This document shows positions 147 to 20,000 of a stretch of 20,000 nucleotides of DNA, piece after piece. Source of the stretch: an uncultured virus (IMG/VR IMGVR_UViG_3300042473_000519). Lineage: Duplodnaviria > Heunggongvirae > Uroviricota > Caudoviricetes. The stretch lies in IMG/VR virus record IMGVR_UViG_3300042473_000519. One strand, written 5' to 3'. The number at the start of each line of letters is the position of its first letter. The stretch's first letter is position 1. Both the position numbers and the translations under genes were made by a program. The notes under the pieces were generated by a model that saw only the letters and a program-made list of their open reading frames with translations, was not told the DNA's origin and did no database searches.

Positions 147-147
147 T

Positions 148-2279: not shown

Positions 2280-2302
2280 TATCTTATTAGGAGAAATAAC
2301 TT

Positions 2303-4036: not shown

Positions 4037-4059
4037 TCAATTCCACCAAAAGGTGACCT

Positions 4060-4091
4060 ATAGGCCTTAAATATTTACGGCCTATTTTTTT
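4060..4091 (+). terminator. Intrinsic terminator after uvsY
   Basis: ATAGGCC(4060-4066)/GGCCTAT(4079-4085) stem, inner palindrome TAAATATTTA, T-run to 4091. Confidence 0.7.
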
Positions 4092-4102
4092 GTCTAAAAG
4101 GT

Positions 4103-4130
4103 TTGACATTAGACAAAACTATGCTATACT
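4103..4130 (+). promoter_or_regulatory. Sigma70 promoter with extended -10
   Basis: TTGACA(4103-4108)-N16-TATACT(4125-4130) with TG at 4122-4123; ATG 6 nt downstream. Confidence 0.75.
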
Positions 4131-4136
4131 ACACAT

Positions 4137-6784: not shown

Positions 6785-6790
6785 GGAACT

Positions 6791-7881: not shown

Positions 7882-8156
7882 TGGGAGATCTTAAACCTGG
7901 TGCAAAATATATCTACGAGCGTAACGGCGAGGAAATATATGCGAGAGAGTTTGGAGATAACGAGCGTAAGTTAATTGGTTATCAGTACGAAAATGGAACA
8001 GATCCTCGAACAGCAGATGGGCGGCCCCTGCATGAGCACATGAAAGAAGATCAATTGTGGGGACAAATTCGGAGAGAAGCAAAGACCAATGTGACTTTAC
8101 AAAAGGCCCTGGATCGTGCTATAATGATATACAAACTTAGTAAAGATAAAGTATGA
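7881..8156 (+). CDS. Hypothetical protein
   Basis: 91-aa ORF, AAGGAG RBS, coupled to both neighbours. Confidence 0.7.
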   Translation: MGDLKPGAKYIYERNGEEIYAREFGDNERKLIGYQYENGTDPRTADGRPLHEHMKEDQLWGQIRREAKTNVTLQKALDRAIMIYKLSKDKV

Positions 8157-8632
8157 GTGAAAAAGTAGAGCTTAAAGAAAAACTGGCTGCAATAGATCAG
8201 AATGTTAAAGAACTGTGGGATGCCATGGATGCTGAACAACAAAAAGCTCTCAAAGGAGAATACTTTATTCTCAATCGCTATGTTAGTAATGTTCAAAGTT
8301 CTAAACGAGAAGTACAGGAACATTTTGTATTGACTGTCAACGAATACTTTAACAAGAACTGGAACTTGTTGCAAAAGCATCCTAAACTAATGTGGCAATT
8401 ACTGTGTATGTGTAGCTACAATGGAGAAACAGTTTTCTTTCATCAATGGTTAGGTAATAAAAAGAAAACAGGCACAGGCGGCAAGAAGTTGAAGTTTCTT
8501 GCAGAGATTTATCCTAATAAAAAAATGGATGAGTTGGAACTACTGGCAGATCTTGCCACAGATAAAGACATGAAAGAGCTGGCCAGAAAACACGGCTTTG
8601 ATGAAGCAACTATTGCTAAAAAACTTAAATGA
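8153..8632 (+). CDS. Probable clamp-loader small subunit (T4 gp62-like)
   Basis: Y.(F)ILNRY.S, VNE..N, then F.QWL...KK pattern resembling gp62-family proteins; replication context. Confidence 0.45.
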   Translation: MSEKVELKEKLAAIDQNVKELWDAMDAEQQKALKGEYFILNRYVSNVQSSKREVQEHFVLTVNEYFNKNWNLLQKHPKLMWQLLCMCSYNGETVFFHQWLGNKKKTGTGGKKLKFLAEIYPNKKMDELELLADLATDKDMKELARKHGFDEATIAKKLK

Positions 8633-9321
8633 TGCTACTGGAAAATATATCTTATACTTGTCAGTATTGCAAGAACAAATTCAGTAAAGAAAAAACTTTG
8701 GCTGTGCATATCTGCGAGCAAAAACGCAGAGCACTTGCTAAGACTGAAAAACATGTGGTAATGGGATATGATACTTATAACAGATTTTACAGAAAAACGC
8801 AAAACAGTAAGCAGGATAAAACTTATGAGGATTTTGCTAAAAGTCCTTATTATAACGCTTTCGTTAAGTTTGGCAGCTTTGTTAGTAATGTTAATCCTTT
8901 ATACCCGGACAGATTCATTGACTACGTGGTGGTTAGCGGCGTTAAACTGGATCAATGGTGTAGAGATGAACTTTACGAAAAATATGTACTTGATCTTATC
9001 CGGGTCGAAACAGTAGAAACTGCACTACAACGTAGCATTACACACATGATGAAATGGGGTGATGATAATAATGCACAATGGAATCATTACTTTCTATATG
9101 TTAGTTTAAGTCGTGCTTGTTATGATATTAAAGATGGAAAAGTGAGTCCGTGGCTAATTTTAAATAGCAATAGCGGTAAAGAGATGTTGCGTAAATTAAA
9201 TGATGAACAATTGTCAGCAATTGGATCAACTATTGATCTCCAATTCTGGATGAGTAAATTTAAAAAACTTCCAGCAGATGTTGCGTTGGTTAAAGAAGTA
9301 GTTAGAGAGAGTAATATATAA
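8629..9321 (+). CDS. Hypothetical protein with N-terminal C2H2/C2HC-type zinc finger
   Basis: YTCQYCKNKFSKEKTLAVHIC fits C-x2-C-x3-F-x5-L-x2-H. Confidence 0.7.
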   Translation: MMLLENISYTCQYCKNKFSKEKTLAVHICEQKRRALAKTEKHVVMGYDTYNRFYRKTQNSKQDKTYEDFAKSPYYNAFVKFGSFVSNVNPLYPDRFIDYVVVSGVKLDQWCRDELYEKYVLDLIRVETVETALQRSITHMMKWGDDNNAQWNHYFLYVSLSRACYDIKDGKVSPWLILNSNSGKEMLRKLNDEQLSAIGSTIDLQFWMSKFKKLPADVALVKEVVRESNI

Positions 9322-9896
9322 TGGATGTTGATATTGACTTTGCTGATAGATCAATTGCTTTGAAAAAATTCAAGCACGTGGTTGCGGCTATTGACGACAA
9401 GGGTATTTTTAAAAAACACAATACTGGAGTATATTGCACTAGTATTCCGTACAATCCTATCACAGGAATAAGTACTATAGATTATAAAACAGCAGAAGAT
9501 AGAGGTTATTTTAAAATAGATTTTTTAAATGTTAGTGTGTATGATGGTGTTAAAAGCAAAGAGCATTTGACTCAATTATTGGAGACTGAACCACTATGGG
9601 ATTTACTCTTGGAAGACGACTTCGTGAACAATTTGTTCCACGTGAATGGGCATGGACCTATTCTTCGACAAATGAAACCTGGATCTATAGAACAGTTAGC
9701 GGCAGTGTTGGCAATGATACGTCCGGCAAAACGTTACCTGATTGGGAAAGATTGGACGACAGTGATGACGGAGATTTGGACCAAACCAGAGAATGATGAG
9801 TATTTTTTCAAACACAGTCATTCTATAGCATACGCACACGTGATTGTTGTGCAAATGAATCTAATTTGTGAAAATTTAACGAACCTTTCGAACTAA
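9321..9896 (+). CDS. dnaE: Miniature DNA polymerase III alpha (family C)-like protein, palm and partial fingers only
   Basis: DVDIDF (cf. PDIDIDF), KHNTGVY (cf. KHAAG), GYFKIDFL (cf. GLVKFDFL), AMIRP (cf. ALYRP), YFFKHSHSIAY (cf. YGFNKSHAAAY), in native order. Confidence 0.75.
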   Translation: MDVDIDFADRSIALKKFKHVVAAIDDKGIFKKHNTGVYCTSIPYNPITGISTIDYKTAEDRGYFKIDFLNVSVYDGVKSKEHLTQLLETEPLWDLLLEDDFVNNLFHVNGHGPILRQMKPGSIEQLAAVLAMIRPAKRYLIGKDWTTVMTEIWTKPENDEYFFKHSHSIAYAHVIVVQMNLICENLTNLSN

Positions 9897-10250
9897 CTGT
9901 ACACTCTTGCGTTTCACACGTTTGAGAGTCAAGTTCATGAGATTTACACACGGGCCCAACAATAATCGTGTATCTTTGCTGTTGAATGTTTTGATAGCAT
10001 AGTGGAATGGGTGTATCATTTCTCTGCAGAATATGTTGATGGGAAATTGTCTATTTGATTCCCACCACCATGTTTCGCCTATTTCTAAGAACAATGTTTT
10101 CTCTTCAGCAGTCTTAATGGCATTAAGGTCATAAAAACTTGTGACGAATTGATCCTGGTTTATAATAATGCCCACGTATTCTTCCTCACCGTAGTTTAAC
10201 ACGGATATAAAGGGTAATTTCTGTTCGATATCGTCTCTTAGTTTTGCCAT
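9876..10250 (-). CDS. Hypothetical protein, sole minus-strand gene in the replication block
   Basis: 124-aa ORF that fills the gap between plus-strand genes; WWWESNR motif; basic C-terminus. Confidence 0.75.
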   Translation of the reverse strand: MAKLRDDIEQKLPFISVLNYGEEEYVGIIINQDQFVTSFYDLNAIKTAEEKTLFLEIGETWWWESNRQFPINIFCREMIHPFHYAIKTFNSKDTRLLLGPCVNLMNLTLKRVKRKSVQLVRKVR

Positions 10251-10255
10251 AAATA
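10249..10255 (+). promoter_or_regulatory. T4-like late promoter element
   Basis: ATAAATA 20 nt upstream of ATG 10276. Confidence 0.5.
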
Positions 10256-10275
10256 GTATATAAAGGTCCTGTCAG

Positions 10276-11103
10276 ATGCAAAAAATTTCAAGTTATTTAT
10301 ATCCTAATAGAGTTGAACTATTAGCCAATTTGGCAGGATTTACTGTGGAGTATACAAACGTGTATCAGAGAAATGTAAAAATATATAATGGCATCGATAA
10401 CACCATTGAGTTCGATATAAAGAACGCAGATCAAAAACGCATCGATTTGGCCACGCTGACTCAGATAGAATTAAACATAATGGATGCTCAAGGAAATGCT
10501 TTAGAAAATAGTCCATACACTGTTACTCCAACTGCATTGAAAGGTATTGCCGCTGTTACTATTCCTCAAGAAGATTTAACTGAATTATCCAGCCAATATT
10601 TAAAATACAGTGTTACTGCCCTTAAAGATGGCAACGATGTTATGTTGTATGCTGACAGTAGATTCGGAGCAGTGGGCAAATTTGAATTAGTTGGAGATGC
10701 AATGCCAACATTTAGGAATGAGAAAGTTTACGATAGATTCAGCGGTGAAATTGATTTGATGGGTAATGTAAAAAATCATACCAGTGCTATTCCTTGTAAA
10801 TTTTACGAAGCTATACCAACAACTGAAATGTCATTTGATATAACTTATACCGATTATACCGGTGAGATGTATATTGAAGCAACCAAGGATTCTACCATTA
10901 GTGTAGAATCATTTAATCGTAATGGTGTAAAATTAGTTACATTTACACCTCCAGTAGGTACTGGAACATTTACTCAATCGTTTACATTGCCAGTTGGTGA
11001 TTACAATTATTTTAGAGTAGTCTGGACATATTTAGATCCAACATTACTTGGACTATATGGTGCTAGTCCAACCGGAACTGTTGACAAAGTAGTGGTAAAT
11101 TAA
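10276..11103 (+). CDS. Probable virion structural protein (BppU N-terminal/Ig-like beta-sandwich)
   Basis: IYNGIDNTIEFDIKNADQKRIDL...G.A.VTI....L..L....YSV pattern; Thr/Gly-rich beta character; late-promoter element upstream. Confidence 0.5.
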   Translation: MQKISSYLYPNRVELLANLAGFTVEYTNVYQRNVKIYNGIDNTIEFDIKNADQKRIDLATLTQIELNIMDAQGNALENSPYTVTPTALKGIAAVTIPQEDLTELSSQYLKYSVTALKDGNDVMLYADSRFGAVGKFELVGDAMPTFRNEKVYDRFSGEIDLMGNVKNHTSAIPCKFYEAIPTTEMSFDITYTDYTGEMYIEATKDSTISVESFNRNGVKLVTFTPPVGTGTFTQSFTLPVGDYNYFRVVWTYLDPTLLGLYGASPTGTVDKVVVN

Positions 11104-11110
11104 GTATAAT
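11081..11110 (+). promoter_or_regulatory. Consensus sigma70 promoter for primase
   Basis: TTGACA(11081-11086)-N18-TATAAT(11105-11110); ATG 5 nt downstream. Confidence 0.75.
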
Positions 11111-11115
11111 TAGGC

Positions 11116-12096
11116 ATGGGCCTAATAGCAGACACACTACTACAATACTTACCTGGTAAAAGAAAACAAACTCCAAGCGGATGGATAAGTTTTAATGCCC
11201 CTTGCTGTGACGATAAAAGACAGCGTGGCGGCTTTATTATTAACGGTGGCGATGCAGTAAGCTATCATTGTTTTAATTGCCAGTTCAAATGCAGTTGGCA
11301 ACCCGGCAGAACTATTAGTCAAAAGATGAACAAGTTCATGCAATTGCTCAACATGGGCGATGATACTATTAGCCAATTAAAGCTAGAAGCACTGCGTCTT
11401 AATGACAATTCCAATACAATTATACAAAGCATAGTACCCAAGTTTGAACCTAGAGCAATGCCTTTGGATAGCGAACTTATATCAAGTTTAGACCATATCC
11501 CGGAAAAGCTCATTCCTGTGCTTGAATATCTTTCAAGTAGAAGTTTATATCTCGAAGATTATCCATTTTATTGGACACCTAAAATAGGGTTTAGCAATAG
11601 AGTAATCATACCGTTCCTCAAAGACAATGTCATTGTGGGTTACACAGCTCGGGCCATAGGCGACACTAAACCCAAGTACATCAGTGAGCAACAACCGGGA
11701 TATGTGTTTAATTTAGATAGGCAAGCAAATAATCGAGACTTCGTAATTGTATGTGAAGGCCCGTTTGACGCGATAAGTATTGATGGATGTGCATTGTTAG
11801 GTGCTGAGATTAAAGACAGCCAAAACTGGCTACTCAAGCAATTGGGTAGGGAAATTGTTCTTGTTCCCGATAGAGATCACGAAGGACCTAAGACAATAGA
11901 GCAAGCATTAGAGTATGGCTGGTCAGTAAGTATGCCCAACTGGCCCGAAGGCATTAAAGATGTAAACGATGCAGTAGTTAAGTTAGGTAGACTAGCAACA
12001 TTATACCTAATAACATCCGCTAAAGAATCCAACAGCCTTAAGATACAACTTAAGGCAAAGAAATGGTTTAAGGAAGAACATGAAACGAATAATTGA
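11116..12096 (+). CDS. DNA primase (DnaG/T4 gp61-like)
   Basis: Zn-binding PCC...HCFNC; TOPRIM motifs VCEGPFDA, PDRD..G, KDVND. Confidence 0.88.
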   Translation: MGLIADTLLQYLPGKRKQTPSGWISFNAPCCDDKRQRGGFIINGGDAVSYHCFNCQFKCSWQPGRTISQKMNKFMQLLNMGDDTISQLKLEALRLNDNSNTIIQSIVPKFEPRAMPLDSELISSLDHIPEKLIPVLEYLSSRSLYLEDYPFYWTPKIGFSNRVIIPFLKDNVIVGYTARAIGDTKPKYISEQQPGYVFNLDRQANNRDFVIVCEGPFDAISIDGCALLGAEIKDSQNWLLKQLGREIVLVPDRDHEGPKTIEQALEYGWSVSMPNWPEGIKDVNDAVVKLGRLATLYLITSAKESNSLKIQLKAKKWFKEEHETNN

Positions 12097-12193
12097 TTTT
12101 TTATTACGACCTTGGTACAAGTATCAAGAACGCAAACGTTTTAAAGAACGGCTCGAAGAATTACGCAAACGTGATCCATTTATCTACAAATGA
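12080..12193 (+). CDS. 37-aa small protein coupled to the carbamoyltransferase (not in the ORF track)
   Basis: MKRIIDFLLRPWYKYQERKRFKERLEELRKRDPFIYK; AAGGA RBS; ATGA overlap with the 12190 start. Confidence 0.7.
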   Translation: MKRIIDFLLRPWYKYQERKRFKERLEELRKRDPFIYK

Positions 12194-13146
12194 TTCACTG
12201 GGGGATTAATGCACTTAATCACGGCAGTAGCCTTGCAGTGTTTAAGGACGAGAGACTAATAAGTTTGGATGTTTCACACGAAGATGAAATACCTAGCGAG
12301 ATTAAACTTAAGGCATTAAATTATGGTGGTGCACCGGATCGCATATATTGGTATGAACGTCCGTGGGTAAAGAAGGCAAGACAAATTTATGCTGGACAAT
12401 ATCGTACTGCCATGGATATAAGCAACTTACCAAATAACTATACACAAAGAACAGGATTACATTATGCACCAATTACGTACACTCCACACCATGCTAGTCA
12501 CGCGGCGGCAGGTTATTATACCAGCCCTTTTAATCACTGTGCTGTTGTCGTGCTTGATGCTATCGGTGAGTTTGAATGTGCTACAATTTGGAATTGCAGT
12601 CACGGCGAAATGAAGAAAGTGTGGAGTAGAAGTTACCCACATAGTTTAGGATTGTTCTACAGTGCCTTTACTCAGTTTATTGGGTTAACTCCAATAAAAG
12701 ACGAACACTTATTACAGAAAATGGCAGAACAAGGTAATCCTTACTTGTTTAGAAGAACAGTAGGTAACTACTTTGGAACAGGAGTAGTTGACTTAGAATA
12801 CAACTTTCATAGAGGAGTTGGGCATTGGGATGACAATAAATTAGAGACGTTACAGCTACAATGCGACCTTGCTGCCGCAGTACAAGAGCGTTTTGAAATA
12901 GAAGTAGGCAAGATAATGCGTCTGGCTAAGACATTAACTAATGCAGACTGTTTAGTCTATATGGGCGGTTGTGCTATGAACAGTCAGGCCAATCGTAACG
13001 AAGTAGAACCACAGTTTAAGTACATATGGAGTTTACCTAACCCTGGCGATCCTAGTAGTAGCATGGGCGCCGTGTTATATCATACAAAAAATCGAGTGCA
13101 GGATTATCCGTGGGATCCAGTCAAACACATTGATATTAAAGTTTAA
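12190..13146 (+). CDS. NodU/CmcH/TobZ-family carbamoyltransferase, N-terminal Kae1-like domain only
   Basis: HHASHAAAGYYTSPF, DAIGE, SLGLFYS, GGCAMN..AN, PNPGD...MGA; no C-terminal YrdC-like domain. Confidence 0.85.
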   Translation: MIHWGINALNHGSSLAVFKDERLISLDVSHEDEIPSEIKLKALNYGGAPDRIYWYERPWVKKARQIYAGQYRTAMDISNLPNNYTQRTGLHYAPITYTPHHASHAAAGYYTSPFNHCAVVVLDAIGEFECATIWNCSHGEMKKVWSRSYPHSLGLFYSAFTQFIGLTPIKDEHLLQKMAEQGNPYLFRRTVGNYFGTGVVDLEYNFHRGVGHWDDNKLETLQLQCDLAAAVQERFEIEVGKIMRLAKTLTNADCLVYMGGCAMNSQANRNEVEPQFKYIWSLPNPGDPSSSMGAVLYHTKNRVQDYPWDPVKHIDIKV

Positions 13147-13158
13147 AGAGCGTATAAT
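13130..13158 (+). promoter_or_regulatory. Sigma70 promoter for the replicative helicase
   Basis: TTGATA(13130-13135)-N17-TATAAT(13153-13158); ATG 5 nt downstream. Confidence 0.7.
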
Positions 13159-13163
13159 ACATT

Positions 13164-14627
13164 ATGACAGATGATAAAAAAGCAAGACAAAACGTGGACT
13201 ATGGATATGACATCCAGAAAGTCTACTTGGAAATGATGCTGGCAGATGCAGGCACATTTGTACGCTGCCAAAGTATTTTTGACAGCAGTTTATTCGACCG
13301 TAAGCTACGTGAGCCAGCGGAGTTTCTTACTGCATATGTAAGTGAGAACAATGTGTTACCCACGCCTGACATTCTAAATGCGGCAACAGGCAGTAATCTC
13401 AAGGCAGCAACAGAACTACGTGAAGAACACTTTGAATGGTTGCTCAACGACTTTGAAACGTTTACCCGCCACAAAGGACTGGAACGTGCTATTCTAGAAT
13501 CGGCAGATTTGCTGGAAAAAGGTGAGTACGGTCCAGTGGAAGAAAAAATCAAACAAGCGGTACAGATTGGATTACAAAGAGACATGGGTACTGATTATTT
13601 CAAAGACCCAAGAGCACGATTGATGAGGATCAAGGACAAGAATGGACAAATTTCAACAGGTTGGAAAGCTGTCGACGATAAGTTATTTGGGGGTTTTAAT
13701 CGCGGGGAACTTAATATCTGGGCTGGTGGTAGTGGCGCTGGTAAAAGTCTTTTCCTAGCTAACTTAGGTGTTAACTATGCAACATCTGGACTTAACGTAC
13801 TGTATCTCACATTAGAATTGAGTGAAGAACTTGTATCCATGCGTGTGGATGCAATGATAACCGGAATCCCTACAAGAGAGATTTTCAAGAACATCGATGA
13901 CGTTGAGATCAAAGTCAAAATGATTGGCAAGAAATCTGGACAGTTCCAAGTCAAGTACATGCCAAGTGGTAAGACAGCCAATGATATTCGTGCTTATATG
14001 AAAGAGTATGAAATCAAAATGGGCCGTAAGATTGATGTATTGCTAGTTGACTACATGGACTTGCTAATGCCCTTGAGCAAGAAGATCAGTGCAGAAAACT
14101 TGTTTGTCAAGGACAAGTATGTTAGTGAAGAACTACGTAATCTAGCAGTGGAAAAGCAATGTGTATTCGTTACTGCGGCGCAGTTGAATCGTGGAGCAGT
14201 GGAAGAAATTGAGTTTGACCACAGCCACATATCGGGCGGGCTCTCCAAGATTCAAACAGCAGATAACGTGTTTGGTATTTTTACAAGTCGTGCTATGCGT
14301 GAACGTGGCAAGTATCAAATTCAGCTGATGAAGACACGCTCCAGCAGTGGTGTCGGTCAAAAGATTGATCTGGACTTTAATATTGATACACTGCGTATCA
14401 CAGACTGTGAGCAAGAAGATACATATGGTTCTGGACAAGCCAGTGCAGGATCCAGTTTGTTAAGCAGTATCAAAGCCCGTCAAACTGTAACAGATGAAAC
14501 CAAACCTGCATGGGAACGTGCCACACCTGCGGAAGGTTTTGACCTGGGCAAGCCTAGAATCAAAGCACAGGTCGAAAGTAGCAAGCTAAGAGATTTACTG
14601 AACAACTTACCACAGGATGATGTGTAA
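13164..14627 (+). CDS. Replicative DNA helicase, DnaB/T4 gp41-like (SF4)
   Basis: ISTGW..VD, Walker A GGSGAGKS, YLTLEL, Walker B LLVDYMDL, AAQLNR, MKTRS. Confidence 0.9.
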   Translation: MTDDKKARQNVDYGYDIQKVYLEMMLADAGTFVRCQSIFDSSLFDRKLREPAEFLTAYVSENNVLPTPDILNAATGSNLKAATELREEHFEWLLNDFETFTRHKGLERAILESADLLEKGEYGPVEEKIKQAVQIGLQRDMGTDYFKDPRARLMRIKDKNGQISTGWKAVDDKLFGGFNRGELNIWAGGSGAGKSLFLANLGVNYATSGLNVLYLTLELSEELVSMRVDAMITGIPTREIFKNIDDVEIKVKMIGKKSGQFQVKYMPSGKTANDIRAYMKEYEIKMGRKIDVLLVDYMDLLMPLSKKISAENLFVKDKYVSEELRNLAVEKQCVFVTAAQLNRGAVEEIEFDHSHISGGLSKIQTADNVFGIFTSRAMRERGKYQIQLMKTRSSSGVGQKIDLDFNIDTLRITDCEQEDTYGSGQASAGSSLLSSIKARQTVTDETKPAWERATPAEGFDLGKPRIKAQVESSKLRDLLNNLPQDDV

Positions 14628-14674
14628 TCATCCTGTAACACAACTTTAAGACAAAAGACATAAGTACACATATA

Positions 14675-15136
14675 ATGACCATGGAATTCATACGCATAAC
14701 TGATCCGAAAGATCCTAGAGCAAGTTGCATCAAGGACGATCCGGTACGACCCCACATTCCACTTGAACAGCGTATAAATGAAGCAGCTGAAATCTTGATA
14801 CTGAAAGCAGGCGAGGAAATACTTGCGGCCACATGCATGCAATGGCTCAGCACTATTCCCAAGAGCGAAGAAGATTTGGTCACCATGGACAAGGACAAAC
14901 GTGTGGCAGTGTTCTATACCATTTGGAGTTACGCACCAGGTGCAGGCGCCCGCTTGATCAAGGAAGCCGCAGAATGGATTCTAAAGGACTACAAGGATGT
15001 GGACGATATTGTTACACTTAGTCCCCAGACTGAGATGGCACGCCGATTCCACACCAAGAACGGTGCCACTGTGCATCAAACCAACGATACCACAGTTAAC
15101 TATCAATACTACCGTCGCAAGAAGCCCACTGAGTAA
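14675..15136 (+). CDS. Hypothetical protein, possible GNAT-like acetyltransferase fold
   Basis: FYTIWSYAPGAGARLI resembles GNAT motif A; ARRFH.KNG resembles motif B; ATAAGTA at 14660-14666 upstream. Confidence 0.5.
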   Translation: MTMEFIRITDPKDPRASCIKDDPVRPHIPLEQRINEAAEILILKAGEEILAATCMQWLSTIPKSEEDLVTMDKDKRVAVFYTIWSYAPGAGARLIKEAAEWILKDYKDVDDIVTLSPQTEMARRFHTKNGATVHQTNDTTVNYQYYRRKKPTE

Positions 15137-15142
15137 ATTCGC

Positions 15143-15149
15143 ATAAATA
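15143..15149 (+). promoter_or_regulatory. T4-like late promoter element
   Basis: ATAAATA 4 nt upstream of ATG 15154; no SD. Confidence 0.55.
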
Positions 15150-15153
15150 TTGC

Positions 15154-15888
15154 ATGCGAGTACATGAAATAATCAGCGAAGGAATTGGATCCAAGATATT
15201 GGGTCTATTTGGCAAACAAGCGCCAAAAGAACTGCCCCGTATAGATCCCGTAATGGGCAAGCCCAGTGGTGCAACCCCCACTCCCACACGGCCGGATCTT
15301 GGTCAAACATCCAAACCCACTGGTGCAACTCCCACGCCCACTCGTGATCCTGATCAAACTCCTAGACCCACTCCCATATACACCACACCCAAATCCACAG
15401 CCGGACTGGATACCTTTCCTGCACTGGCCGCCAAAACAGCTCAAGCAGAAAGGGTTGGATTGCAGTTGCACAATCTTCCGGGCACACAGGATAAAATAGT
15501 GCAGATAGGTACTAGACCCATAGTGGTGGTGGACATAGATGGTTTTGCTGCTCCGTTTTATGTGAGCACAGGCAGTGGTGGCAAAACCGGAGTGCCTGTG
15601 GGCAAATGGTATCCGTTCTTTGGCATTGGTGCCAAAGGCTGGTTCAACAAAGGTTGGACAGAAGAAATGATCAATACGTATTATGGCAATGCCAAACTGG
15701 CACGTGTGGCCCATGTGCTGGACAGCTCCATAGGCGATGTGAGAAATTTGGCAGGAGAAATGATGTCGGGTCAACCAGCCCTGAGCGTTATCAATGCGGG
15801 CAAACAGCCTTGGCCTTCACACATAATGAAACCTGATGAACAGCGTGCCTATGAACGATACATTACTGCTTTGGTAGACAGCATCTAG
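15154..15888 (+). CDS. Probable capsid-internal protein with Pro/Thr linker and unknown C-terminal domain
   Basis: N-terminal MRVHEIISE; PT-rich repeats; globular C-terminal part with PFYVSTG..GK...GKWYPFFG. Confidence 0.65.
   Translation: MRVHEIISEGIGSKILGLFGKQAPKELPRIDPVMGKPSGATPTPTRPDLGQTSKPTGATPTPTRDPDQTPRPTPIYTTPKSTAGLDTFPALAAKTAQAERVGLQLHNLPGTQDKIVQIGTRPIVVVDIDGFAAPFYVSTGSGGKTGVPVGKWYPFFGIGAKGWFNKGWTEEMINTYYGNAKLARVAHVLDSSIGDVRNLAGEMMSGQPALSVINAGKQPWPSHIMKPDEQRAYERYITALVDSI
15259..15345 (+). repeat. Intragenic degenerate direct repeat (33-nt unit, 54-nt period)
   Basis: KPSGATPTPTR (15259-15291) and KPTGATPTPTR (15313-15345). Confidence 0.8.
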
Positions 15889-16012
15889 GCACCCGCTGGT
15901 TCTTGCTACGAAGTAGCAGCGAAGCGCAAAATCGGAAAGCAGATTTTAGGTCAGTTAACAGCCCACATTATCACTCTCACCAAATCCTTTAAATACAGTA
16001 CTGGAGAATTCT

Positions 16013-16336
16013 ATGGCAACCATATCCGCAAGCATACCCCTAGCAGCCAATATGAAAATATTGGTGGACTCAGCTTCACAAGCTGAAATCGACGACGCAC
16101 TGGCTGCAAAATATGCCACGGTAATTACCACTATTAGCACAAGGGCAACACAGGGCTACAGCACAAAGGTATTCAACTACAGTAGTTACAGTGGTTTTGA
16201 TGGTGGTGCGTTGGAAGGCGGAGTAGCAGCCAATGAAACTGAGTTTACTGCACTAATGGTGCGTTATGGATATGTGGTAACCAAAAGCGATGCCAATAAC
16301 GACAGTTTTACCACAGTAACAGTAAGCTGGGCCTAA
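16013..16336 (+). CDS. Hypothetical protein, probably late/structural
   Basis: 107 aa, Ala/Thr/Ser-rich; GGAG RBS 16003-16006; TAAATA 15990-15995. Confidence 0.7.
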   Translation: MATISASIPLAANMKILVDSASQAEIDDALAAKYATVITTISTRATQGYSTKVFNYSSYSGFDGGALEGGVAANETEFTALMVRYGYVVTKSDANNDSFTTVTVSWA

Positions 16337-16345
16337 AGTATAATA

Positions 16346-17002
16346 CTAGGCCAAATGCTGTTGTAGGGCGTTGATCTGTTGTTGTCCGCCCTTGGATAAT
16401 TTAAACCCTGCCTTCTTAGCACGATCAATACGCTGTTGATAATTTGGATGCGTACTATTGGGCATGCTGGATACAAAGTTAGTCCAATCATACTCTTCCT
16501 TACTGTGCATGAACTTGAACAATTCAGCAGTGTTGTAACCTAGTAATTTGGCCAGCTTAATACCAAAGTCATCAGCATCAAACTCATCCTTACGTGAAAC
16601 TGCAGGTGTTGCTGGTGCACCTATGTGTGCCAGTGCAATATGGCCAAGTTCATGTCCTATGGCCACTGCCAGTGTGGCATCTGGTGCGTCCCAAAACACT
16701 GTAATGTCTATGATAATAGTACGATCCTGTGCATTGGCTTGTACGTACTGATCAGTGCTTCTTACTGTGATAGTAGTGCCTGCTAGCTTTTTCGCCCATG
16801 GTGCTCCAGCTGCTTGAACGAGTCTGGCTAACATGCTGTTACAACGTGCTTGCAATTGATTTAATCGTGGTGCCCAAGTATTGACCAGTGCATCAGGATC
16901 CTTTTGCAAAGTGGCAATATCTTGAAACTTCTTAGCGGGAGTTGTGGGTGTGGCAGTGGTTGTGGGCTCCGCAGTGGGTTCAAGTATTTCAATAATTTTC
17001 AT
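16346..17002 (-). CDS. M48-like zinc metallopeptidase (soluble)
   Basis: LA.AIGHELGH (HEXXH), R.DEFDAD, STHP...RI; no obvious transmembrane segment. Confidence 0.85.
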   Translation of the reverse strand: MKIIEILEPTAEPTTTATPTTPAKKFQDIATLQKDPDALVNTWAPRLNQLQARCNSMLARLVQAAGAPWAKKLAGTTITVRSTDQYVQANAQDRTIIIDITVFWDAPDATLAVAIGHELGHIALAHIGAPATPAVSRKDEFDADDFGIKLAKLLGYNTAELFKFMHSKEEYDWTNFVSSMPNSTHPNYQQRIDRAKKAGFKLSKGGQQQINALQQHLA

Positions 17003-17008
17003 ACAGTG

Positions 17009-17016
17009 TATTTATA
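17009..17016 (-). promoter_or_regulatory. Perfect T4-type late promoter TATAAATA
   Basis: Minus strand reads TATAAATA-CACTGT-ATG. Confidence 0.7.
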
Positions 17017-17308
17017 GCGAGAATGGTGTTGTAAGGTTCAAAAAAAATATACGCAGAAAAAATTTGAGCAGTACTTACGCACTATACGGGGTTAGTTTGA
17101 AGTCCCCGAATGGGTCCTTTGCTCCGCAAATTTCTTGTGCGTAAAAAAATATAGAGAAGTACTTTTGCTTTTGGTGGGGTGATTTGGCACCTATGGTGAG
17201 TTGATTTTGCATGCGCTGTTGTAAAAATACAACAGTAAATCATTTGTATAGTCCCCCACCCCTCTCGAAATCTTTTTTATTTTGCATGCCCCGACCGATA
17301 TTTTAATC

Positions 17309-17358
17309 AAAAAGAATCCCTGACATACCGGGAGCGAATCGGATTTATTGTCAGGGAT
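17309..17358 (-). terminator. Intrinsic terminator-like hairpin closing the minus-strand early array
   Basis: Perfect 10-bp stem ATCCCTGACA(17316-17325)/TGTCAGGGAT(17349-17358), followed on the minus strand by TCTTTTT. Confidence 0.65.
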
Positions 17359-17412
17359 CACACTGCCCGGACATCCTTCCGGGCTAGGAGTCTCGTTGCC
17401 GGGAGCGAATCG
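17328..17412. repeat. Exact 14-bp direct repeat CCGGGAGCGAATCG, each copy at a hairpin apex
   Basis: Copies at 17328-17341 and 17399-17412. Confidence 0.9.
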
Positions 17413-17477
17413 TTGGCGAGACCTTGTGTACAGCACAGCTCTTAGTGGCTGCTTACTGTACTGCATACACGTACAGC

Positions 17478-18362
17478 TTAACGGCTGTTACGCATACACG
17501 TTACCTCTGCTACTGCCTTCCACTTGTCTGGGAAGCCATGCTTCAAGTCAGCTACCTTAAGGACTGTACGCAAGCTCAGCTCACGCAGGCGATGCACGTT
17601 GGCCTTAACAAAGTCCACTACCTCCATTGCTTGGTAGGGTTCGAACTCATACTTGTCCAGCATACCGCACTCGTTAACCACCTGCTCAATGCGTAGGATC
17701 TTCTCACGCTCTGTGTCGATAGTAAGGTCCAAGTAGTGGCAGCGTGACTCCAATGCTTCCAAGTGATCGCGGAGCTTCTTTGACTTAACGTGATCGAACT
17801 TGATGTTGGTAATAAAGATAGCACCGCCCTTGAACTCAAAGCTGTCTGGCACGCCTTCACGACGCAATAGGTGTGAGTCAGTGTTCCAATGGATCATACG
17901 CTTGCTGGATGTATCCAATGCTGCCTTAAGAATGTTCAAGCTCAAGTCATCCAACAGCACACTGTCACAGTCATCAAACACTAGAATGTTCTTGGCATCC
18001 TTGTAGTGATACAGCTTAGAGTACAAGCCCAGGGCACTCATAGCACCTTTGACTACTTCATACTTCTTCAGCTTCTCGTCCTGTGCCACATTGGCAAACA
18101 CATCGTGCTTTGACAACACAGTCTCAACACCGTGGCTCTTGCCCACACCCGGAGGGCCTGTGACAATCATAGCACGTACCTTGCCGCTCTTAACTGCACG
18201 AGTCATGTCGTCCAGGATCTCAAAACGATCTCTCAAACGAGTCAGTATCTCTTCATCCGTTTCTTTAGACAGATCCTTCTTCACAGCTTCGACTTCAAGA
18301 GTCTTGCTGGTAACTTCTGATTGTAGTGCCATAAGCATCTTTGATGTAACGACTTTAGCCAT
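17478..18362 (-). CDS. AAA+ family ATPase (early gene)
   Basis: Walker A GPPGVGKS, Walker B VFDDCD, sensor FITN, Arg finger ALESR; start reassigned to MAKVV (18362) after AAAGGA and downstream of the promoter. Confidence 0.85.
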   Translation of the reverse strand: MAKVVTSKMLMALQSEVTSKTLEVEAVKKDLSKETDEEILTRLRDRFEILDDMTRAVKSGKVRAMIVTGPPGVGKSHGVETVLSKHDVFANVAQDEKLKKYEVVKGAMSALGLYSKLYHYKDAKNILVFDDCDSVLLDDLSLNILKAALDTSSKRMIHWNTDSHLLRREGVPDSFEFKGGAIFITNIKFDHVKSKKLRDHLEALESRCHYLDLTIDTEREKILRIEQVVNECGMLDKYEFEPYQAMEVVDFVKANVHRLRELSLRTVLKVADLKHGFPDKWKAVAEVTCMRNSR

Positions 18363-18396
18363 TTGTGTTCCTTTATTTACGCTGTTTAAAGATTTA

Positions 18397-18425
18397 ATTA
18401 TAACAGAACCTTGCGGCTCTGTCAT
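18397..18425 (-). promoter_or_regulatory. Sigma70 early promoter
   Basis: ATGACA(18425-18420)-N17-TATAAT(18402-18397), extended -10 TG. Confidence 0.75.
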
Positions 18426-18434
18426 GTATTTTGG

Positions 18435-18788
18435 TTAGTCCATTCTGCTTCCGCTGTAGACCTTGTCCAGACCCAACTTGTCTTTGAGCACTTGGGCGTA
18501 GGCATCTGCTCCCGCTTCCAAAATGCTGATTGATTGAGTAGGGAAGCCGCTGGGGTTCCACAAGCTCAATGCACCCGTGTAGTCTTTGCGGAAGCCTGCG
18601 GCCTGTAGCCACTTGCCCACTTTGCTGTTTGAACGAACGCCAAACACGTTGACCCACGCAAAGCCGCATGCATCTCTGTCGCCGTGTTTGGCGTGGAATG
18701 CTTTGGCCGCTGTACGGGCTTGGATGCCTGCTTCGTTGCAAGCGTTTTGAACTGCTTCTTGTGTGATAACTGTTGCTTGTGCTAACAT
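18435..18788 (-). CDS. Hypothetical early protein (CGFAWV motif)
   Basis: 117 aa, AGGAG RBS, own promoter. Confidence 0.8.
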   Translation of the reverse strand: MLAQATVITQEAVQNACNEAGIQARTAAKAFHAKHGDRDACGFAWVNVFGVRSNSKVGKWLQAAGFRKDYTGALSLWNPSGFPTQSISILEAGADAYAQVLKDKLGLDKVYSGSRMD

Positions 18789-18819
18789 AGGTTCGCTCCT
18801 GTGTGTTGTTTAAGTAGTA

Positions 18820-18848
18820 ATTATAACAGCTTTAGACCCAGCTGTCAA
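18820..18848 (-). promoter_or_regulatory. Consensus sigma70 early promoter
   Basis: TTGACA(18848-18843)-N17-TATAAT(18825-18820), extended -10 TG. Confidence 0.85.
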
Positions 18849-19215
18849 CCATCATAACGGGCTTCTTAAGCACTCGTTTTACAAAGTCCTCGGGCTCGTC
18901 GTCTGCACGTACCAGCACAAAGCCCATGCTCTCTACCAAGTCCACCTCGCATACCTGGAGATCCACTGCGGCGGCCTCAAAGGCAATGTTCATCTTGGTC
19001 AGTGCATACTTAACGCCTGCTTGGAAGGCCTCGTACTCGCCATCACCTGTGTCTTCAAAGTCAAACTCTGTTTCCATAATGTGGGCGTACTCTTGTCCAT
19101 CTGCAATGATGAACTTGTTTATCTTCTTCCAGTTGCTCTGCTTCTCGCTGTCAAAGTGGTCACAGCACTCGTTAATGTCAAAACTGGCAAAACGGTCATA
19201 GTTAATAGTAGTCAT
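18832..19215 (-). CDS. Acidic hypothetical early protein
   Basis: Start reassigned to MTTINYD (19215) after AAGGGAG; 127 aa. Confidence 0.78.
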   Translation of the reverse strand: MTTINYDRFASFDINECCDHFDSEKQSNWKKINKFIIADGQEYAHIMETEFDFEDTGDGEYEAFQAGVKYALTKMNIAFEAAAVDLQVCEVDLVESMGFVLVRADDEPEDFVKRVLKKPVMMVDSWV

Positions 19216-19246
19216 TTGGGTCGCTCCCTTGTGTGTGTAAGTGTTT

Positions 19247-19275
19247 ATTATACAACTACTTTGGCAAGTTGTCAA
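19247..19275 (-). promoter_or_regulatory. Consensus sigma70 early promoter
   Basis: TTGACA(19275-19270)-N17-TATAAT(19252-19247). Confidence 0.85.
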
Positions 19276-19279
19276 CCTA

Positions 19280-19388
19280 ACTACATATTGGGCAGAGTCT
19301 CCGAACTCTCTTAGGATCCCTTGGTTACAACCCTTTTTGCATTTCTGCTGGGTTCTTACATACGAGGATCACCTTGTTGCTGTTTATG
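19280..19388 (-). ncRNA. Putative structured small RNA / minigene-bearing transcript
   Basis: Own consensus promoter, no ORF longer than 5 codons; stems GATCCT/GGGATC, AACCC/GGGTT, GCA-GAAA-TGC, AGAGT/ACTCT. Confidence 0.55.
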
Positions 19389-19393
19389 TGTTT

Positions 19394-19422
19394 ATTATAC
19401 TATCAAACTGTGGCCTTGTCAA
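19394..19422 (-). promoter_or_regulatory. Consensus sigma70 early promoter
   Basis: TTGACA(19422-19417)-N17-TATAAT(19399-19394). Confidence 0.85.
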
Positions 19423-19774
19423 CTGCAAAATAGCGGTAGGGCAAGTCCAAAGTCCAAGCAAGGAACTCGTCATCGCCGCTGGTGCCTTCAGCTTCGTGGA
19501 CCCAACGAAGTGCCATCTCGTAGCTCTTAGCACCCGACATCATCAGGCTCTGCATCCGCATTTCGAACGCGATGGAAGCCGCGTCCTCAGCCTGTTCACG
19601 GAGTTGGCTTTCACGGCGGATCACTTCTGCCAACTGTTCGAACTCAGCTTCGAACTGGGCTTCAGTCCAACCGCTAGTGTCCACATGCCGTGGGCGGAAG
19701 TTATAGGCATCCTTGTACATGTCCCAGTGGATGCTTTGAAGTTCTTCCATGCGGGTCAGTGTGTATTCTTGCAT
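19403..19774 (-). CDS. Hypothetical early protein (WDMYKDAYNFRPR motif)
   Basis: Start MQEYTL (19774) after GGAG; alternative leaderless ATG at 19801; both downstream of the promoter. Confidence 0.75.
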   Translation of the reverse strand: MQEYTLTRMEELQSIHWDMYKDAYNFRPRHVDTSGWTEAQFEAEFEQLAEVIRRESQLREQAEDAASIAFEMRMQSLMMSGAKSYEMALRWVHEAEGTSGDDEFLAWTLDLPYRYFAVDKATV

Positions 19775-19807
19775 TGTGTGCTCCAGTGTGTTGCTGTCCA
19801 TGTGTGT

Positions 19808-19836
19808 ATTATAGCAGGATTGGCTAGTCCTGTCAA
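19808..19836 (-). promoter_or_regulatory. Consensus sigma70 early promoter
   Basis: TTGACA(19836-19831)-N17-TATAAT(19813-19808), extended -10 TG. Confidence 0.85.
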
Positions 19837-20000
19837 GCCAATTTGTACTTCTTTTTCGCATCCACTTCGGCCTGTTGCTTGGCTGCCGACTGCTCCATTG
19901 CCACCAAAAACTCTGCGAACTGCGCCTTAGTCAGGTGCTGTGCTGCCATGCCCGCAACCATTGACCCCAAGTAGCCGTTAGCGAAAGCAGAAGTGTCGTA
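19833..20000 (-). CDS. 3' end of a hypothetical early protein, truncated by the window edge
   Basis: Open frame YDTSAFANGYLGSMVAGMAAQHLTKAQFAEFLVAMEQSAAKQQAEVDAKKKYKLA; its TGA is part of the next TTGACA. Confidence 0.7.
   Translation of the reverse strand, partial: YDTSAFANGYLGSMVAGMAAQHLTKAQFAEFLVAMEQSAAKQQAEVDAKKKYKLA

What the first reader, a model, noticed from the sequence alone, without database searches (positions are those of the whole stretch)
17309..17476. Hairpin array ending the early operon displays duplicated loops antisense to early-gene ribosome-binding sites
Seen: downstream of the AAA ATPase, the minus strand forms consecutive hairpins. Two have unrelated stems (17316-17358 and 17390-17422) but an identical 14-nt apex, CGAUUCGCUCCCGG. 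Its core UUCGCUCCC pairs over 8 nt with the SD regions of two upstream minus-strand early genes: AGGAGCGAAC before 18788 (18792-18799) and AAGGGAGCGA before 19215 (19221-19228). It pairs over 5 nt with GGAGC before 19774. The SSB and UvsX genes use AGGAGA instead. The last hairpin is followed by UCUUUUU, supporting minus-strand transcription. Established: C-rich anti-SD loops are how sRNAs such as S. aureus RNAIII seed on target RBSs. Inference: a phage 3'-UTR-derived sRNA that shuts off a GGAGCGA-tagged class of early mRNAs. If the plus strand is transcribed instead (G-U pairs in the second stem allow this), it would be a decoy for a GGAGCGA-binding repressor.
Basis: partly seen in the sequence, partly recalled or inferred. 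Interest (0 to 1): 0.75.

Follow-up and report, generated by a model that had tools for sequence, protein, structure and literature searches.

The report
Phage mRNA tail mirrors early ribosome sites
An uncultured giant phage ends its early operon with RNA hairpins whose loops are the exact mirror of a private tag in the ribosome-binding sites of its early genes, and tag and loop have changed together in a sister lineage, so the tail most likely pairs with those messages to switch early protein synthesis off.

Summary
The 14-nt apex CGAUUCGCUCCCGG occurs twice on the minus strand (17328-17341, 17399-17412) and nowhere else in the 108-kb record. It sits in two hairpins in the 3'UTR of an NrdC.10-like AAA ATPase gene; the second hairpin is an intrinsic terminator. 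All 80 related viral contigs examined keep the core GAUUCGCUCC downstream of the ATPase while the stems covary. Its complement GGAGCGA(A) is the Shine-Dalgarno region of 8 early genes in this record and of 0 of 43 other GGAG sites, and of about half of the early sites in relatives. Decisively, a sister lineage uses the early tag GAGGGC(A) and carries (U)GCCCUC in the loops of the same 3'UTR; the two pairs are mutually exclusive. Best reading: a 3'UTR-borne anti-RBS RNA that pairs with tagged early messages, in cis or in trans, and blocks initiation. Transcript, processing and repression are untested. No Rfam family matched, and my literature searches found no description. It is a new variant of known anti-SD RNA control (icaR 3'UTR, RNAIII/RsaE, P1 c4). 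Function is analogous to T4 RegB.

The parts
17309..17315 (-). U-tract UCUUUUU of the intrinsic terminator that ends the early operon
   Evidence: Sequence. In relatives a T-run of 5 or more lies within 30 nt after the last motif in 55 of 66 unique arrangements.
17316..17358 (-). Hairpin B, the terminator hairpin. It has a 10-bp outer stem, an AUAAAU bulge, an inner CCG/CGG stem and the apical 9-nt loop AUUCGCUCC (17339-17331).
   Evidence: Fold. The outer stem shows compensatory changes in 15 relatives. The inner stem covaries.
17365..17384 (-). Middle hairpin (GCCCGGA/UCCGGGC) between the two motif hairpins. It is variable in relatives.
   Evidence: Fold. Motif spacing ranges from 43 to 102 nt in relatives.
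17389..17423 (-). Hairpin A. It has a 7-bp outer stem, conserved CCAA/GCAA internal loop, an inner CG/CG stem and the apical loop AUUCGCUCC (17410-17402).
   Evidence: Fold. Of the six outer-stem pairs, five carry compensatory changes in 3-7 of 15 sequences; one never changes on both sides.
17430..17477 (-). Two 5' hairpins of the 3'UTR that begin directly after the ATPase stop codon. The second has the conserved AGCAGCC...AAGAGCUGU arms.
   Evidence: Fold. Sequence conservation is visible. Function unknown; it could be a processing or stabilising element (inference).
17478..18362 (-). AAA ATPase gene (NrdC.10-like), taken to start at MAKVVTSK. Here its own RBS is AAAGGAACACAA and is untagged.
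18792..18799 (-). Tagged RBS GGAGCGAA of the early gene 18435-18788. It forms 8 bp with loop positions 2-9.
   Evidence: Duplex -13.1 kcal/mol, net -11.0 after target opening.
19221..19228 (-). Tagged RBS GGGAGCGA of the early gene 18832-19215.
   Evidence: Duplex -12.1 kcal/mol, net -8.4.
19780..19784 (-). GGAGC of the second early RBS class (GGAGCAC). It pairs with the loop over only 5 bp.
18397..19836 (-). Array of five consensus sigma-70 promoters (TTGACA-N17-TATAAT): 19836-19808, 19422-19394, 19275-19247, 18848-18820 and 18425-18397. No intervening terminator was found, so all transcripts should end at hairpin B.
   Evidence: In the whole record, 24 of 34 near-consensus promoters lie on this strand in the 12 kb upstream of the element.

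Best explanation
The 3'UTR shared by the co-terminal early transcripts of this jumbo phage is an anti-RBS regulatory RNA. It displays the same 9-nt loop, AUUCGCUCC, on two hairpins, the second of which is the operon's intrinsic terminator. Loop positions 2-9 are the Watson-Crick complement of GGAGCGAA. That sequence is a Shine-Dalgarno core (GGAG) plus a private 4-nt tag (CGAA) that does not match the usual 16S tail. The tag heads a class of early genes, each sitting in a sigma-70 promoter / CA-rich leader / RBS cassette. Shown: the two motifs, their class specificity, the hairpin display with covarying stems, and co-evolution of loop and tag. Inferred: once the 3'UTR has been transcribed, its loops pair with tagged RBSs and occlude the SD so that 30S subunits cannot bind. 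Pairing could occur on the same polycistronic RNA, or in trans if the structured tail outlives the message body. This would give early proteins a burst followed by self-imposed shut-off. That is the job done in T4 by the RegB nuclease acting on an extended early SD motif.
For: Motif and structure. There are two exact copies and no others in 108 kb. The loops are unpaired, and opening them costs 0.0-0.25 kcal/mol. Conservation: all 80 relatives carry the motif within 2 mismatches on the ATPase strand, at 68-100% ATPase identity. The 66 unique arrangements comprise 60 with two copies, 5 with one and 1 with three. Across 101 unique units, G12 and A13 and the nine positions T15-C22 are invariant, and T14 is at least 90% conserved. 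The inner stem is paired in 91% of cells, with 34 double-change cells against 3.7 in shuffles, 0 of 500 shuffles reaching this. In the outer stems, 13 of 21 predicted pairs show compensatory changes. Targets: of 13 GGAGCGA sites in the record, 8 are RBSs with an ATG 5-8 nt downstream. All 8 lie on the element's strand in the 13 kb upstream, and 2 others are the loops themselves. The split is 8 of 29 early sites against 0 of 43 others, p 3.6e-4. In relatives, 205 of 362 unique upstream RBS contexts carry GGAGCGA, against 0 of 26 on the opposite strand, and the RBS consensus stops exactly where loop complementarity stops. Predicted duplexes are -12.1 to -13.3 kcal/mol, or net -8.4 to -11.2. In near-complete 345-383 kb relatives, GGAGCGAA clusters just upstream of the loops. 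Covariation: in the sister lineage (33 unique UTRs, 186 RBS contexts), GAGGGC is found in 96 RBSs and GGAGCGA in 0. GCCCTC is in 33 of 33 UTRs and TCGCTCC in 0. Lineage 1 is the mirror image: 172 and 1 of 391 RBS contexts, 65 and 0 of 66 UTRs. Without any SD pre-filter, the most widespread 3'UTR 7-mer is the reverse complement of a top RBS 7-mer in both lineages. By my own comparison of the two motif pairs, four of the eight duplex positions differ between lineages and all four are compensated. This record's ATPase RBS has lost the tag while the loops are intact, which argues that other tagged genes are targets. Precedents: the icaR 3'UTR UCCCCUG pairs with its own SD and blocks initiation (PMC3868564, abstract). 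UCCC loops of RsaE and RNAIII bind SDs (PMC2790875, passages).
Against: No transcript ends, processing or abundance could be read. Metatranscriptome contigs of relatives cover the early genes, but they carry no strand or end information and may be DNA carry-over. Fold energy does not favour the sense strand: it is more stable in only 27 of 65 cases. Only about half of the early RBSs carry the full tag. A second class, GGAGCAC/GGAGCAA, pairs over only 5 nt. Loop variants GAAUCGCUCC, seen in 7 loci, are not matched by GGAGCGAU RBSs. Forming 8 bp inside a 9-nt loop is sterically demanding, and the energies used ignore this. The two lineages represent essentially one evolutionary switch, so phylogenetic replication is limited. 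Tagged RBSs nearly always lie 45-52 nt after a -35 box (189 of 242 by a strict pattern). Position alone therefore cannot separate an RNA tag from a DNA operator. Repression rather than protection or activation is inferred only from the fact that the SD is covered.
Confidence: 0.66

Rival explanations
1. The pairing is real but is not a shut-off. The loops would bind tagged RBSs to protect early messages, for example from an SD-directed RegB-like or host endonuclease. Alternatively they would order or stabilise the polycistronic RNA, or act only in cis as a brake on the ATPase gene itself (icaR-like) with the other tagged genes as bystanders.
For: All evidence for pairing applies equally. The ATPase's own RBS is tagged in 37 of 56 lineage-1 and 22 of 29 lineage-2 unique contexts. 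In T4, an extended early SD motif (GG*AGRAYARAA) is a nuclease target (PMC3014915, passages). In 12 of 66 lineage-1 arrangements, and in many of the lineage-2 UTRs I inspected, the first motif abuts the ATPase stop codon. This suggests coupling to that gene's translation.
Against: In this window the ATPase RBS is untagged (AAAGGAACACAA) yet both loops are intact. Tagged RBSs greatly outnumber ATPase genes: 172-205 tagged contexts against 66 UTRs. No RegB family match was found in the 108-kb fragment, but the record is only about 30% complete. Covering an SD is, in tested cases such as icaR and RsaE, inhibitory.
Confidence: 0.2
2. The 8-bp motif is a double-stranded DNA site for a phage or host DNA-binding protein, for example a repressor sitting just downstream of each early promoter. 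The two copies near the terminator would be the same site in inverted orientation. Covariation between lineages would then reflect a change in protein specificity.
For: The tag lies at a nearly fixed distance of 45-52 nt from the -35 box of a promoter in 189 of 242 unique tagged sites. A DNA site would also covary in both places. Fold energies do not favour one strand.
Against: In both lineages the motif contains the SD core (GGAG or GAGG) at 5-8 nt from the ATG. Every copy seen in the ATPase 3'UTRs has the inverted orientation: TCGCTCC or GCCCTC, and none forward, in 66 and 33 UTRs. These copies sit at the apex of hairpins whose inner and outer stems keep pairing through compensatory changes, including hairpin A, which is not a terminator. 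A duplex-DNA reader needs none of these features.
Confidence: 0.07
3. The loops are recognition sites for an RNA-binding protein or for the transcription machinery (nut/put-like antitermination, or processing). Their complementarity to the RBS tag would be coincidental. A variant is that the plus strand is transcribed as a GGA-loop decoy for a CsrA-like or GGAGCGA-binding protein.
For: An invariant loop on a variable stem is also the signature of a protein-binding hairpin. The plus strand would display GGAGCGAAU loops that contain GGA.
Against: A single-stranded-RNA reader cannot explain why the loop changes to the complement of a new RBS tag in the sister lineage. There is no promoter or T-run for plus-strand transcription here. 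No Rfam family reached threshold; the best overlap is Ocean-VII at 12.5 bits against a gathering score of 53.5, E 5.
Confidence: 0.05

Closest known systems
icaR mRNA 5'UTR-3'UTR interaction, Staphylococcus aureus (Ruiz de los Mozos et al. 2013, PMC3868564; abstract read)
   Same: A C-rich anti-SD motif in a long 3'UTR pairs with the Shine-Dalgarno region carried on the same mRNA and interferes with the initiation complex.
   Different: icaR has one motif and one target on a monocistronic bacterial mRNA, and the duplex is an RNase III substrate. Here there are two to four identical loops, one of them the terminator loop. The targets are a whole class of RBSs marked by a private tag, in a phage, and in this window the adjacent gene's own RBS is not a target.
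UCCC-loop sRNAs of Firmicutes: RNAIII and RsaE (Geissmann et al. 2009, PMC2790875; passages read)
   Same: Unpaired C-rich motifs, repeated within one RNA and displayed in hairpin loops, bind the SDs of several mRNAs and prevent formation of the initiation complex. The 3' end is a terminator hairpin.
   Different: Those are independent host genes, and their specificity comes from extra flanking pairing that differs for each target. Here specificity is written into a uniform 4-nt extension of the SD shared by the regulon, and the RNA is the tail of the target operon itself.
c4 antisense RNA of phages P1/P7 (as summarised in PMC12197685, passages read)
   Same: A phage RNA whose loop-displayed sequences are complementary to the RBS region of a gene in the same operon and block its translation.
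   Different: c4 controls one target (ant) in a temperate immunity circuit. From recall, it lies upstream of its target and is cut out of the transcript. No sequence or Rfam relationship was found.
T4 RegB endoribonuclease and its extended early SD motif GG*AGRAYARAA (PMC3014915, passages read)
   Same: Functional analogue. [quoted passage not shown] The phage is T4-related in its ATPase and replication genes.
   Different: RegB is a protein nuclease assisted by S1. Here the reader of the mark is proposed to be an RNA loop. No RegB homologue was found in the fragment.
PeSL promoter-terminator cassettes of T4-like phages (PMC4122927, passages read)
   Same: Repeated stem-loop / sigma-70 promoter / SD / start-codon cassettes head small early genes, as in the 24-promoter array found here.
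   Different: PeSLs were described as recombination and shuffling modules. That paper contains no occurrence of 'complementary' or 'antisense', so no loop-to-SD pairing was proposed there.
3'UTR-derived ncRNAs of virulent phages, e.g. PAK_P3 ncRNA1/2 (PMC10914365, passages read)
   Same: Abundant small RNAs that lack their own start site and are processed from the 3'UTR of an upstream phage gene.
   Different: The passages read name no target or seed for them. No sequence relation was tested.

Membership tests
Intrinsic (Rho-independent) terminator | A G+C-rich hairpin immediately followed by a U-run on the transcribed strand, at the end of a transcription unit | tested here: met
   Hairpin B has a 10-bp stem followed by UCUUUUU. 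A T-run of 5 or more lies within 30 nt in 55 of 66 relatives. No consensus promoter follows on this strand for about 25 kb in the record. The simple scanner missed the hairpin because its loop exceeds 8 nt.
Base-pairing anti-SD regulatory RNA (icaR 3'UTR / RNAIII-RsaE type) | An unpaired C-rich motif complementary to the SD region of its targets | tested here: met
   The loop AUUCGCUCC is unpaired. It forms 8 bp with GGAGCGAA at 8 early RBSs.
Base-pairing anti-SD regulatory RNA (icaR 3'UTR / RNAIII-RsaE type) | The pairing is conserved or covaries between relatives | tested here: met
   Reciprocal, mutually exclusive tag/loop pairs occur in two lineages.
Base-pairing anti-SD regulatory RNA (icaR 3'UTR / RNAIII-RsaE type) | The RNA is expressed, and for an sRNA it accumulates as a discrete species | tested here: inconclusive
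   Metatranscriptome contigs of relatives reach the ATPase 3' end and hairpin A: X1 record 1 ends at 17425, and an X4 joint lies at 17417/17477. Contigs carry no strand, end or level information.
Base-pairing anti-SD regulatory RNA (icaR 3'UTR / RNAIII-RsaE type) | Pairing changes translation or stability of the target | not testable with these tools
   This needs toeprinting or reporter assays.
Any curated Rfam family (including P1/P7 c4, RsaE, RNAIII) | A covariance-model match at or above the gathering score | tested here: not met
   cmscan of 16300-20000 at E up to 10 gave 4 chance-level hits. None approaches its gathering score, and none covers the motif hairpins as a unit.
CsrA/RsmA-titrating decoy RNA | Multiple GGA-containing loops on the transcribed strand | tested here: not met
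   GGA loops exist only on the plus strand, which lacks a promoter or terminator here. The loop changes to the complement of the RBS tag in the sister lineage.
tRNA / tmRNA | A cloverleaf detected by ARAGORN | tested here: not met
   0 genes in the window.

The most novel reading that the evidence does not exclude
A large clade of uncultured T4-related jumbo phages runs its early programme with an RNA-only, addressable timer. Early genes carry a lineage-specific address appended to the Shine-Dalgarno core (CGAA in one lineage, a GAGGGCA form in another). The tail of the early transcripts carries multiple copies of the anti-address in hairpin loops. Every early message is thus translated only until its own 3' end, and the accumulating stable tails, silence the tagged class. 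The address can be re-coded by co-evolution, which yields naturally orthogonal translation-control pairs. Similar unverified notes from other phages in this scan hint that terminator-loop anti-RBS control may be a general, overlooked layer of phage temporal regulation.
Probability: 0.45. Interest if true: 0.88.

Novelty: new variant of a known kind. Interest (0 to 1): 0.8.

Why it matters
Temporal control in large lytic phages is understood mainly through proteins: sigma factors, ADP-ribosylation, and RegA and RegB. Here the comparative data point to an RNA that reads a sequence tag built into the ribosome-binding sites of an entire gene class. It is conserved in over a hundred environmental jumbo-phage contigs and has been re-coded in a sister lineage. 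If confirmed, it would give three things. First, a new mechanism for early-gene shut-off. Second, a rule for predicting early regulons in uncultured phages from sequence alone. Third, a pair of naturally orthogonal SD-tag/anti-tag modules that can be tested directly in reporters. It also shows that the non-16S-complementary bases after an SD can carry regulatory information.

Tried and rejected
1. DNA search of 16900-18500 against cultured phage genomes found no match. The nearest cultured homologue of the ATPase is PA5oct at 44% identity. There the gene is followed 44 nt later by the next CDS and has no comparable 3'UTR.

2. Rfam and ARAGORN found nothing relevant.

3. RNAduplex of the whole 179-nt tail against 55-nt leaders gave unrealistic long-range duplexes and was discarded. 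I used loop-only duplexes plus opening energies instead.

4. Sense versus antisense MFE as a strand test was uninformative: the sense strand was more stable in 27 of 65 cases.

5. Public RNA runs: 16 metatranscriptome runs held small shares of the words. Laying four of them showed contigs of relatives over the ATPase and early genes and nothing at 17294-17365 at 85% likeness or better. Contigs cannot show strand, ends or level, so this neither supports nor refutes expression.

6. A scan of viral contigs for the exact 14-mer returned mostly single hits. By my own estimate these are indistinguishable from chance in a collection of that size, so I did not use them.

7. I looked for single-base loop/RBS compensation within lineage 1 (GAAUCGCUCC against GGAGCGAU) and found none.

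8. A third lineage with 61-62% ATPase identity has no tag class and no complementary loop in the fetched 4-7 kb.

9. L276 has one UUGCUCC next to GGAGCAA-type RBSs. This is anecdotal: 4 sites against 0.9 expected.

10. The RegB family PF10715 is absent from the fragment, but the record is about 30% complete.

11. The 91-codon ORF at 17191-17466(-) that overlaps the element was rejected as a gene. Motif spacing in relatives varies from 43 to 102 nt in steps that are not multiples of 3, and the stems change by compensatory pairs.

12. Literature: searches for the motif strings returned nothing on this element. Neither did searches on phage / anti-Shine-Dalgarno / sRNA / early genes, on phage-encoded small RNA / Shine-Dalgarno / early genes, or on jumbo phage / early genes / UTR. 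These cover only the held open-access library.

Full report
**What is there.** The window is the reverse strand of bases 15170-35169 of a 108,205-bp IMG/VR virus record. CheckV rates the record about 30% complete, and near-complete relatives are 345-383 kb, so this is a jumbo phage. On the window's minus strand lies a run of small genes. Each is preceded by a perfect or near-perfect sigma-70 promoter, TTGACA-N17-TATAAT, at 19836, 19422, 19275, 18848 and 18425. In the whole record, 24 of 34 near-consensus promoters sit on this strand within the 12 kb upstream of the finding. The last gene of the run is an AAA ATPase (17478-18362). It matches phrog_1250 at E 2.9e-82 and is homologous to T4 nrdC.10 and to a PA5oct gene at 44% identity. 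The opposite strand of the window carries replication and recombination genes: RecA/UvsX-like, helicases and a primase.

**The observation.** The 170 nt after the ATPase stop fold into five hairpins. Hairpin A (17423-17389) and the terminal hairpin B (17358-16) have unrelated stems. Both present CGAUUCGCUCCCGG at the apex, and hairpin B is followed by UCUUUUU. The 14-mer occurs exactly twice in the window against 0.01 expected and nowhere else in the record. Its 9-nt loop AUUCGCUCC is unpaired in the ensemble.

**Conservation and structure.** A search with the ATPase returned 80 viral contigs at 68-100% protein identity. All 80 carry the motif, within 2 mismatches, downstream of the ATPase on the same strand.
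- Among 66 unique arrangements, 60 have two copies, 5 have one and 1 has three.
- Copy spacing varies from 43 to 102 nt.
- A T-run follows the last copy within 30 nt in 55 of 66 arrangements and within 80 nt in 63 of 66.
- In 101 unique 33-nt units, G12, A13 and T15-C22 are invariant and T14 is at least 90% conserved.
- The three closing pairs covary (C-G, U-A, G-C), with 34 double-change cells against 3.7 in shuffles and 0 of 500 shuffles reaching this.
- In 15 sequences of like architecture, 13 of 21 predicted pairs show compensatory changes, including five of the six outer-stem pairs of hairpin A, which is not a terminator.
- More distant relatives keep the loop with an A-U closing pair (L260) or in a GCUAG/CUAGC stem (L241).

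This is a selected single-stranded structure that displays an invariant loop. No Rfam family and no tRNA matches it.

**The targets.** GGAGCGA occurs 13 times in the record on both strands.
- Eight are ribosome-binding sites with an ATG 5-8 nt downstream. All eight are on the element's strand in the 13 kb upstream.
- Two are the loops read backwards.
- Three are elsewhere.

Among GGAG sites correctly spaced before an ATG-ORF of at least 45 codons, 8 of 29 in the early region and 0 of 43 elsewhere read GGAGCGA (p 3.6e-4). GGAGC is found in 20 of 29 against 3 of 43 (p 3e-8). Late and replication genes use AGGAGA/AGGAA.

In relatives, 205 of 362 unique upstream RBS contexts read GGAGCGA and 150 read GGAGCGAA, against 0 of 26 on the opposite strand. 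Base preference after GGAG is C 0.86, G 0.68, A 0.67, A 0.61, and then vanishes exactly where complementarity to loop positions 2-9 ends.

Predicted loop:RBS duplexes are -12.1 to -13.3 kcal/mol, or -8.4 to -11.2 after opening the leader. Opening the loops costs at most 0.25 kcal/mol. In three near-complete genomes, GGAGCGAA (9-17 copies against 0-2 for the reversed control) clusters immediately upstream of the loops. The few extra reverse-strand copies of the 11-mer are RBSs reading GGGAGCGAAUC before an ATG.

**Covariation.** One relative that lacked the motif (L255) had GCCCUC in the loops of its ATPase 3'UTR and GAGGGCAA at its early RBSs. Searching with its ATPase gave a second lineage of 38 loci. 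The two lineages are reciprocal:

| | Unique UTRs | RBS contexts | GGAGCGA RBSs | GAGGGC RBSs | UTRs with TCGCTCC | UTRs with GCCCTC |
|---|---|---|---|---|---|---|
| Lineage 1 | 66 | 391 | 172 | 1 | 65 | 0 |
| Lineage 2 | 33 | 186 | 0 | 96 | 0 | 33 (two or more copies in 30) |

In lineage 2, 54 of 75 GCCCUC sites have at least 4 of 6 nt unpaired in the MFE fold.

An unbiased 7-mer count used no SD filter and took the first ATG of each ORF of at least 60 codons. It gives the same answer. The most widespread 3'UTR 7-mer is TCGCTCC (65 of 66) in lineage 1 and TGCCCTC (28 of 33) in lineage 2. These are the reverse complements of GGAGCGA (164 of 399, second-ranked) and GAGGGCA (62 of 178, top).

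Writing the duplexes side by side, GGAGCGAA/UUCGCUCC against GAGGGCAA/xUGCCCUC, four of eight positions differ and all four are compensated. This comparison is my own reading. A third, more distant lineage has neither tag nor loops in the fetched DNA.

**Mechanism.** What is shown: two independently conserved motifs, one in hairpin loops at the end of the early transcripts and one in the SD of a class of early genes, are complementary and have co-evolved. The simplest explanation is RNA-RNA pairing.

No terminator was found between the promoters. The early transcripts should therefore form a nested, co-terminal set, each carrying the loops at its 3' end. I infer that RBSs are free while the RNA is being made and translated. 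Once the tail exists it can pair with tagged SDs, in cis or in trans if the structured tail outlasts the message, and so block 30S binding. This is a self-timed shut-off, functionally like T4 RegB acting on GG*AGRAYARAA early SDs (PMC3014915). Mechanistically it resembles the icaR 3'UTR (PMC3868564) and the UCCC loops of RsaE and RNAIII (PMC2790875).

The ATPase's own RBS is tagged in 37 of 56 lineage-1 and 22 of 29 lineage-2 unique contexts, but not in this window (AAAGGAACACAA), where the loops are nevertheless intact. A purely self-directed brake on the ATPase therefore cannot be the whole story here.

**Against, and rivals.**
- No transcript data with strand or ends could be obtained.
- Fold energy does not choose a strand.
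- Only about half of the early RBSs are fully tagged, and a GGAGCAC/GGAGCAA class pairs over only 5 nt.
- A loop variant is uncompensated.
- Forming 8 bp in a 9-nt loop is strained.
- The covariation amounts to one switch between two clades.
- Tagged RBSs almost always sit 45-52 nt after a -35 box, so a duplex-DNA operator is not excluded by position.

Against the DNA operator: the motif contains the SD core, always has inverted orientation in the UTR, and sits in covarying hairpins. A protein-binding loop or a plus-strand decoy does not explain the switch to the complement of a new tag.

**Novelty.** The searches found no description in the held open-access library. The PeSL papers describe the promoter-SD cassettes but no antisense loops. 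Earlier unverified notes of this scan describe the same ATPase-hairpin family as a cis brake, and similar terminator-loop/RBS mirrors in other phages. I tested the cis claim and treat the rest as leads only.

**Verdict.** This is a real, strongly conserved element and a new variant of anti-SD RNA control. Pairing is well supported. Repression and the mode of action are inferred.

Noticed in passing
window 18397-19836 (-), and G000 bases 4746-16745 (+): There is a dense array of 24 near-consensus sigma-70 promoters, all with a 17-nt spacer, roughly one per 500 bp. Four of them are identical copies of TTGACAGGACTAGCCAATCCTGCTATAAT. This is a PeSL-like array of repeated promoter-leader-RBS cassettes.
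   Followed up: partly
window 19780-19784 and G000 sites listed: There is a second early RBS class, GGAGCAC/GGAGCAA (9 of 29 early sites), which pairs with the loop over only 5 nt. It may mark early genes that escape or are only weakly subject to the proposed control.
   Followed up: partly
relatives L024, L034, L040, L042, L043, L045, L049, L052, L055, L060, L063, L074, and lineage-2 UTRs seen: The first anti-RBS motif overlaps or abuts the ATPase stop codon (cUGAuucgcucc; UAGCCCUC / UAAGCCCUC). A terminating ribosome would therefore mask it, which may couple the element to ATPase translation.
   Followed up: partly
window 17273-17292 and 17204-17214 (-): GCATGCAAAAT is repeated downstream of the terminator. 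The first copy lies within GGGGCATGCAAAATAAAAAA, and similar GGGGCAT(A/G)(C/T)AAAATAAAAA strings follow the terminator in several relatives. It could be a promoter or another signal for the next gene.
   Followed up: no
window 16346-17002 (-): The gene after the terminator encodes a 218-aa protein with an HELGH motif and a Peptidase_M48 match (E 6.8e-13). TATAAATA lies 6 nt before its ATG. From memory, that string resembles a T4 late promoter, but it is not enriched in the record, where only 8 copies occur.
   Followed up: partly
G001:283763, G002:278913/278953, G003:95665 (loci L081-L083): A gene about 280 kb into complete relatives has an RBS reading GGGAGCGAAUC before its ATG. This is an 11-nt perfect complement of the loop plus its closing pair and would be the strongest predicted target. 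The gene was not identified.
   Followed up: partly
L276:2646-2652: In a divergent relative whose early RBSs read GGAGCAA, UUGCUCC follows a stop codon just upstream of the ATPase promoter. RNAfold pairs it with the ATPase RBS. This may be a third tag/anti-tag pair, but it is a single case.
   Followed up: partly
G000 whole record: The early region (bases 1-17700) has 46.5% G+C against 40.6% for the rest. Its leaders are CA-rich.
   Followed up: no
window 12190-13146 (+): A protein with a carbamoyltransferase N-terminal domain (E 5.8e-24) is encoded between the primase and the DnaB-like helicase genes.
   Followed up: no
hairpin B internal bulge, window about 17342-17348 (-): The bulge UAAAU/UAAGY 5' of the inner stem, and the CCAAC...GGCAA internal loop of hairpin A, are conserved beyond what pairing needs. 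They may be a protein or chaperone contact.
   Followed up: no
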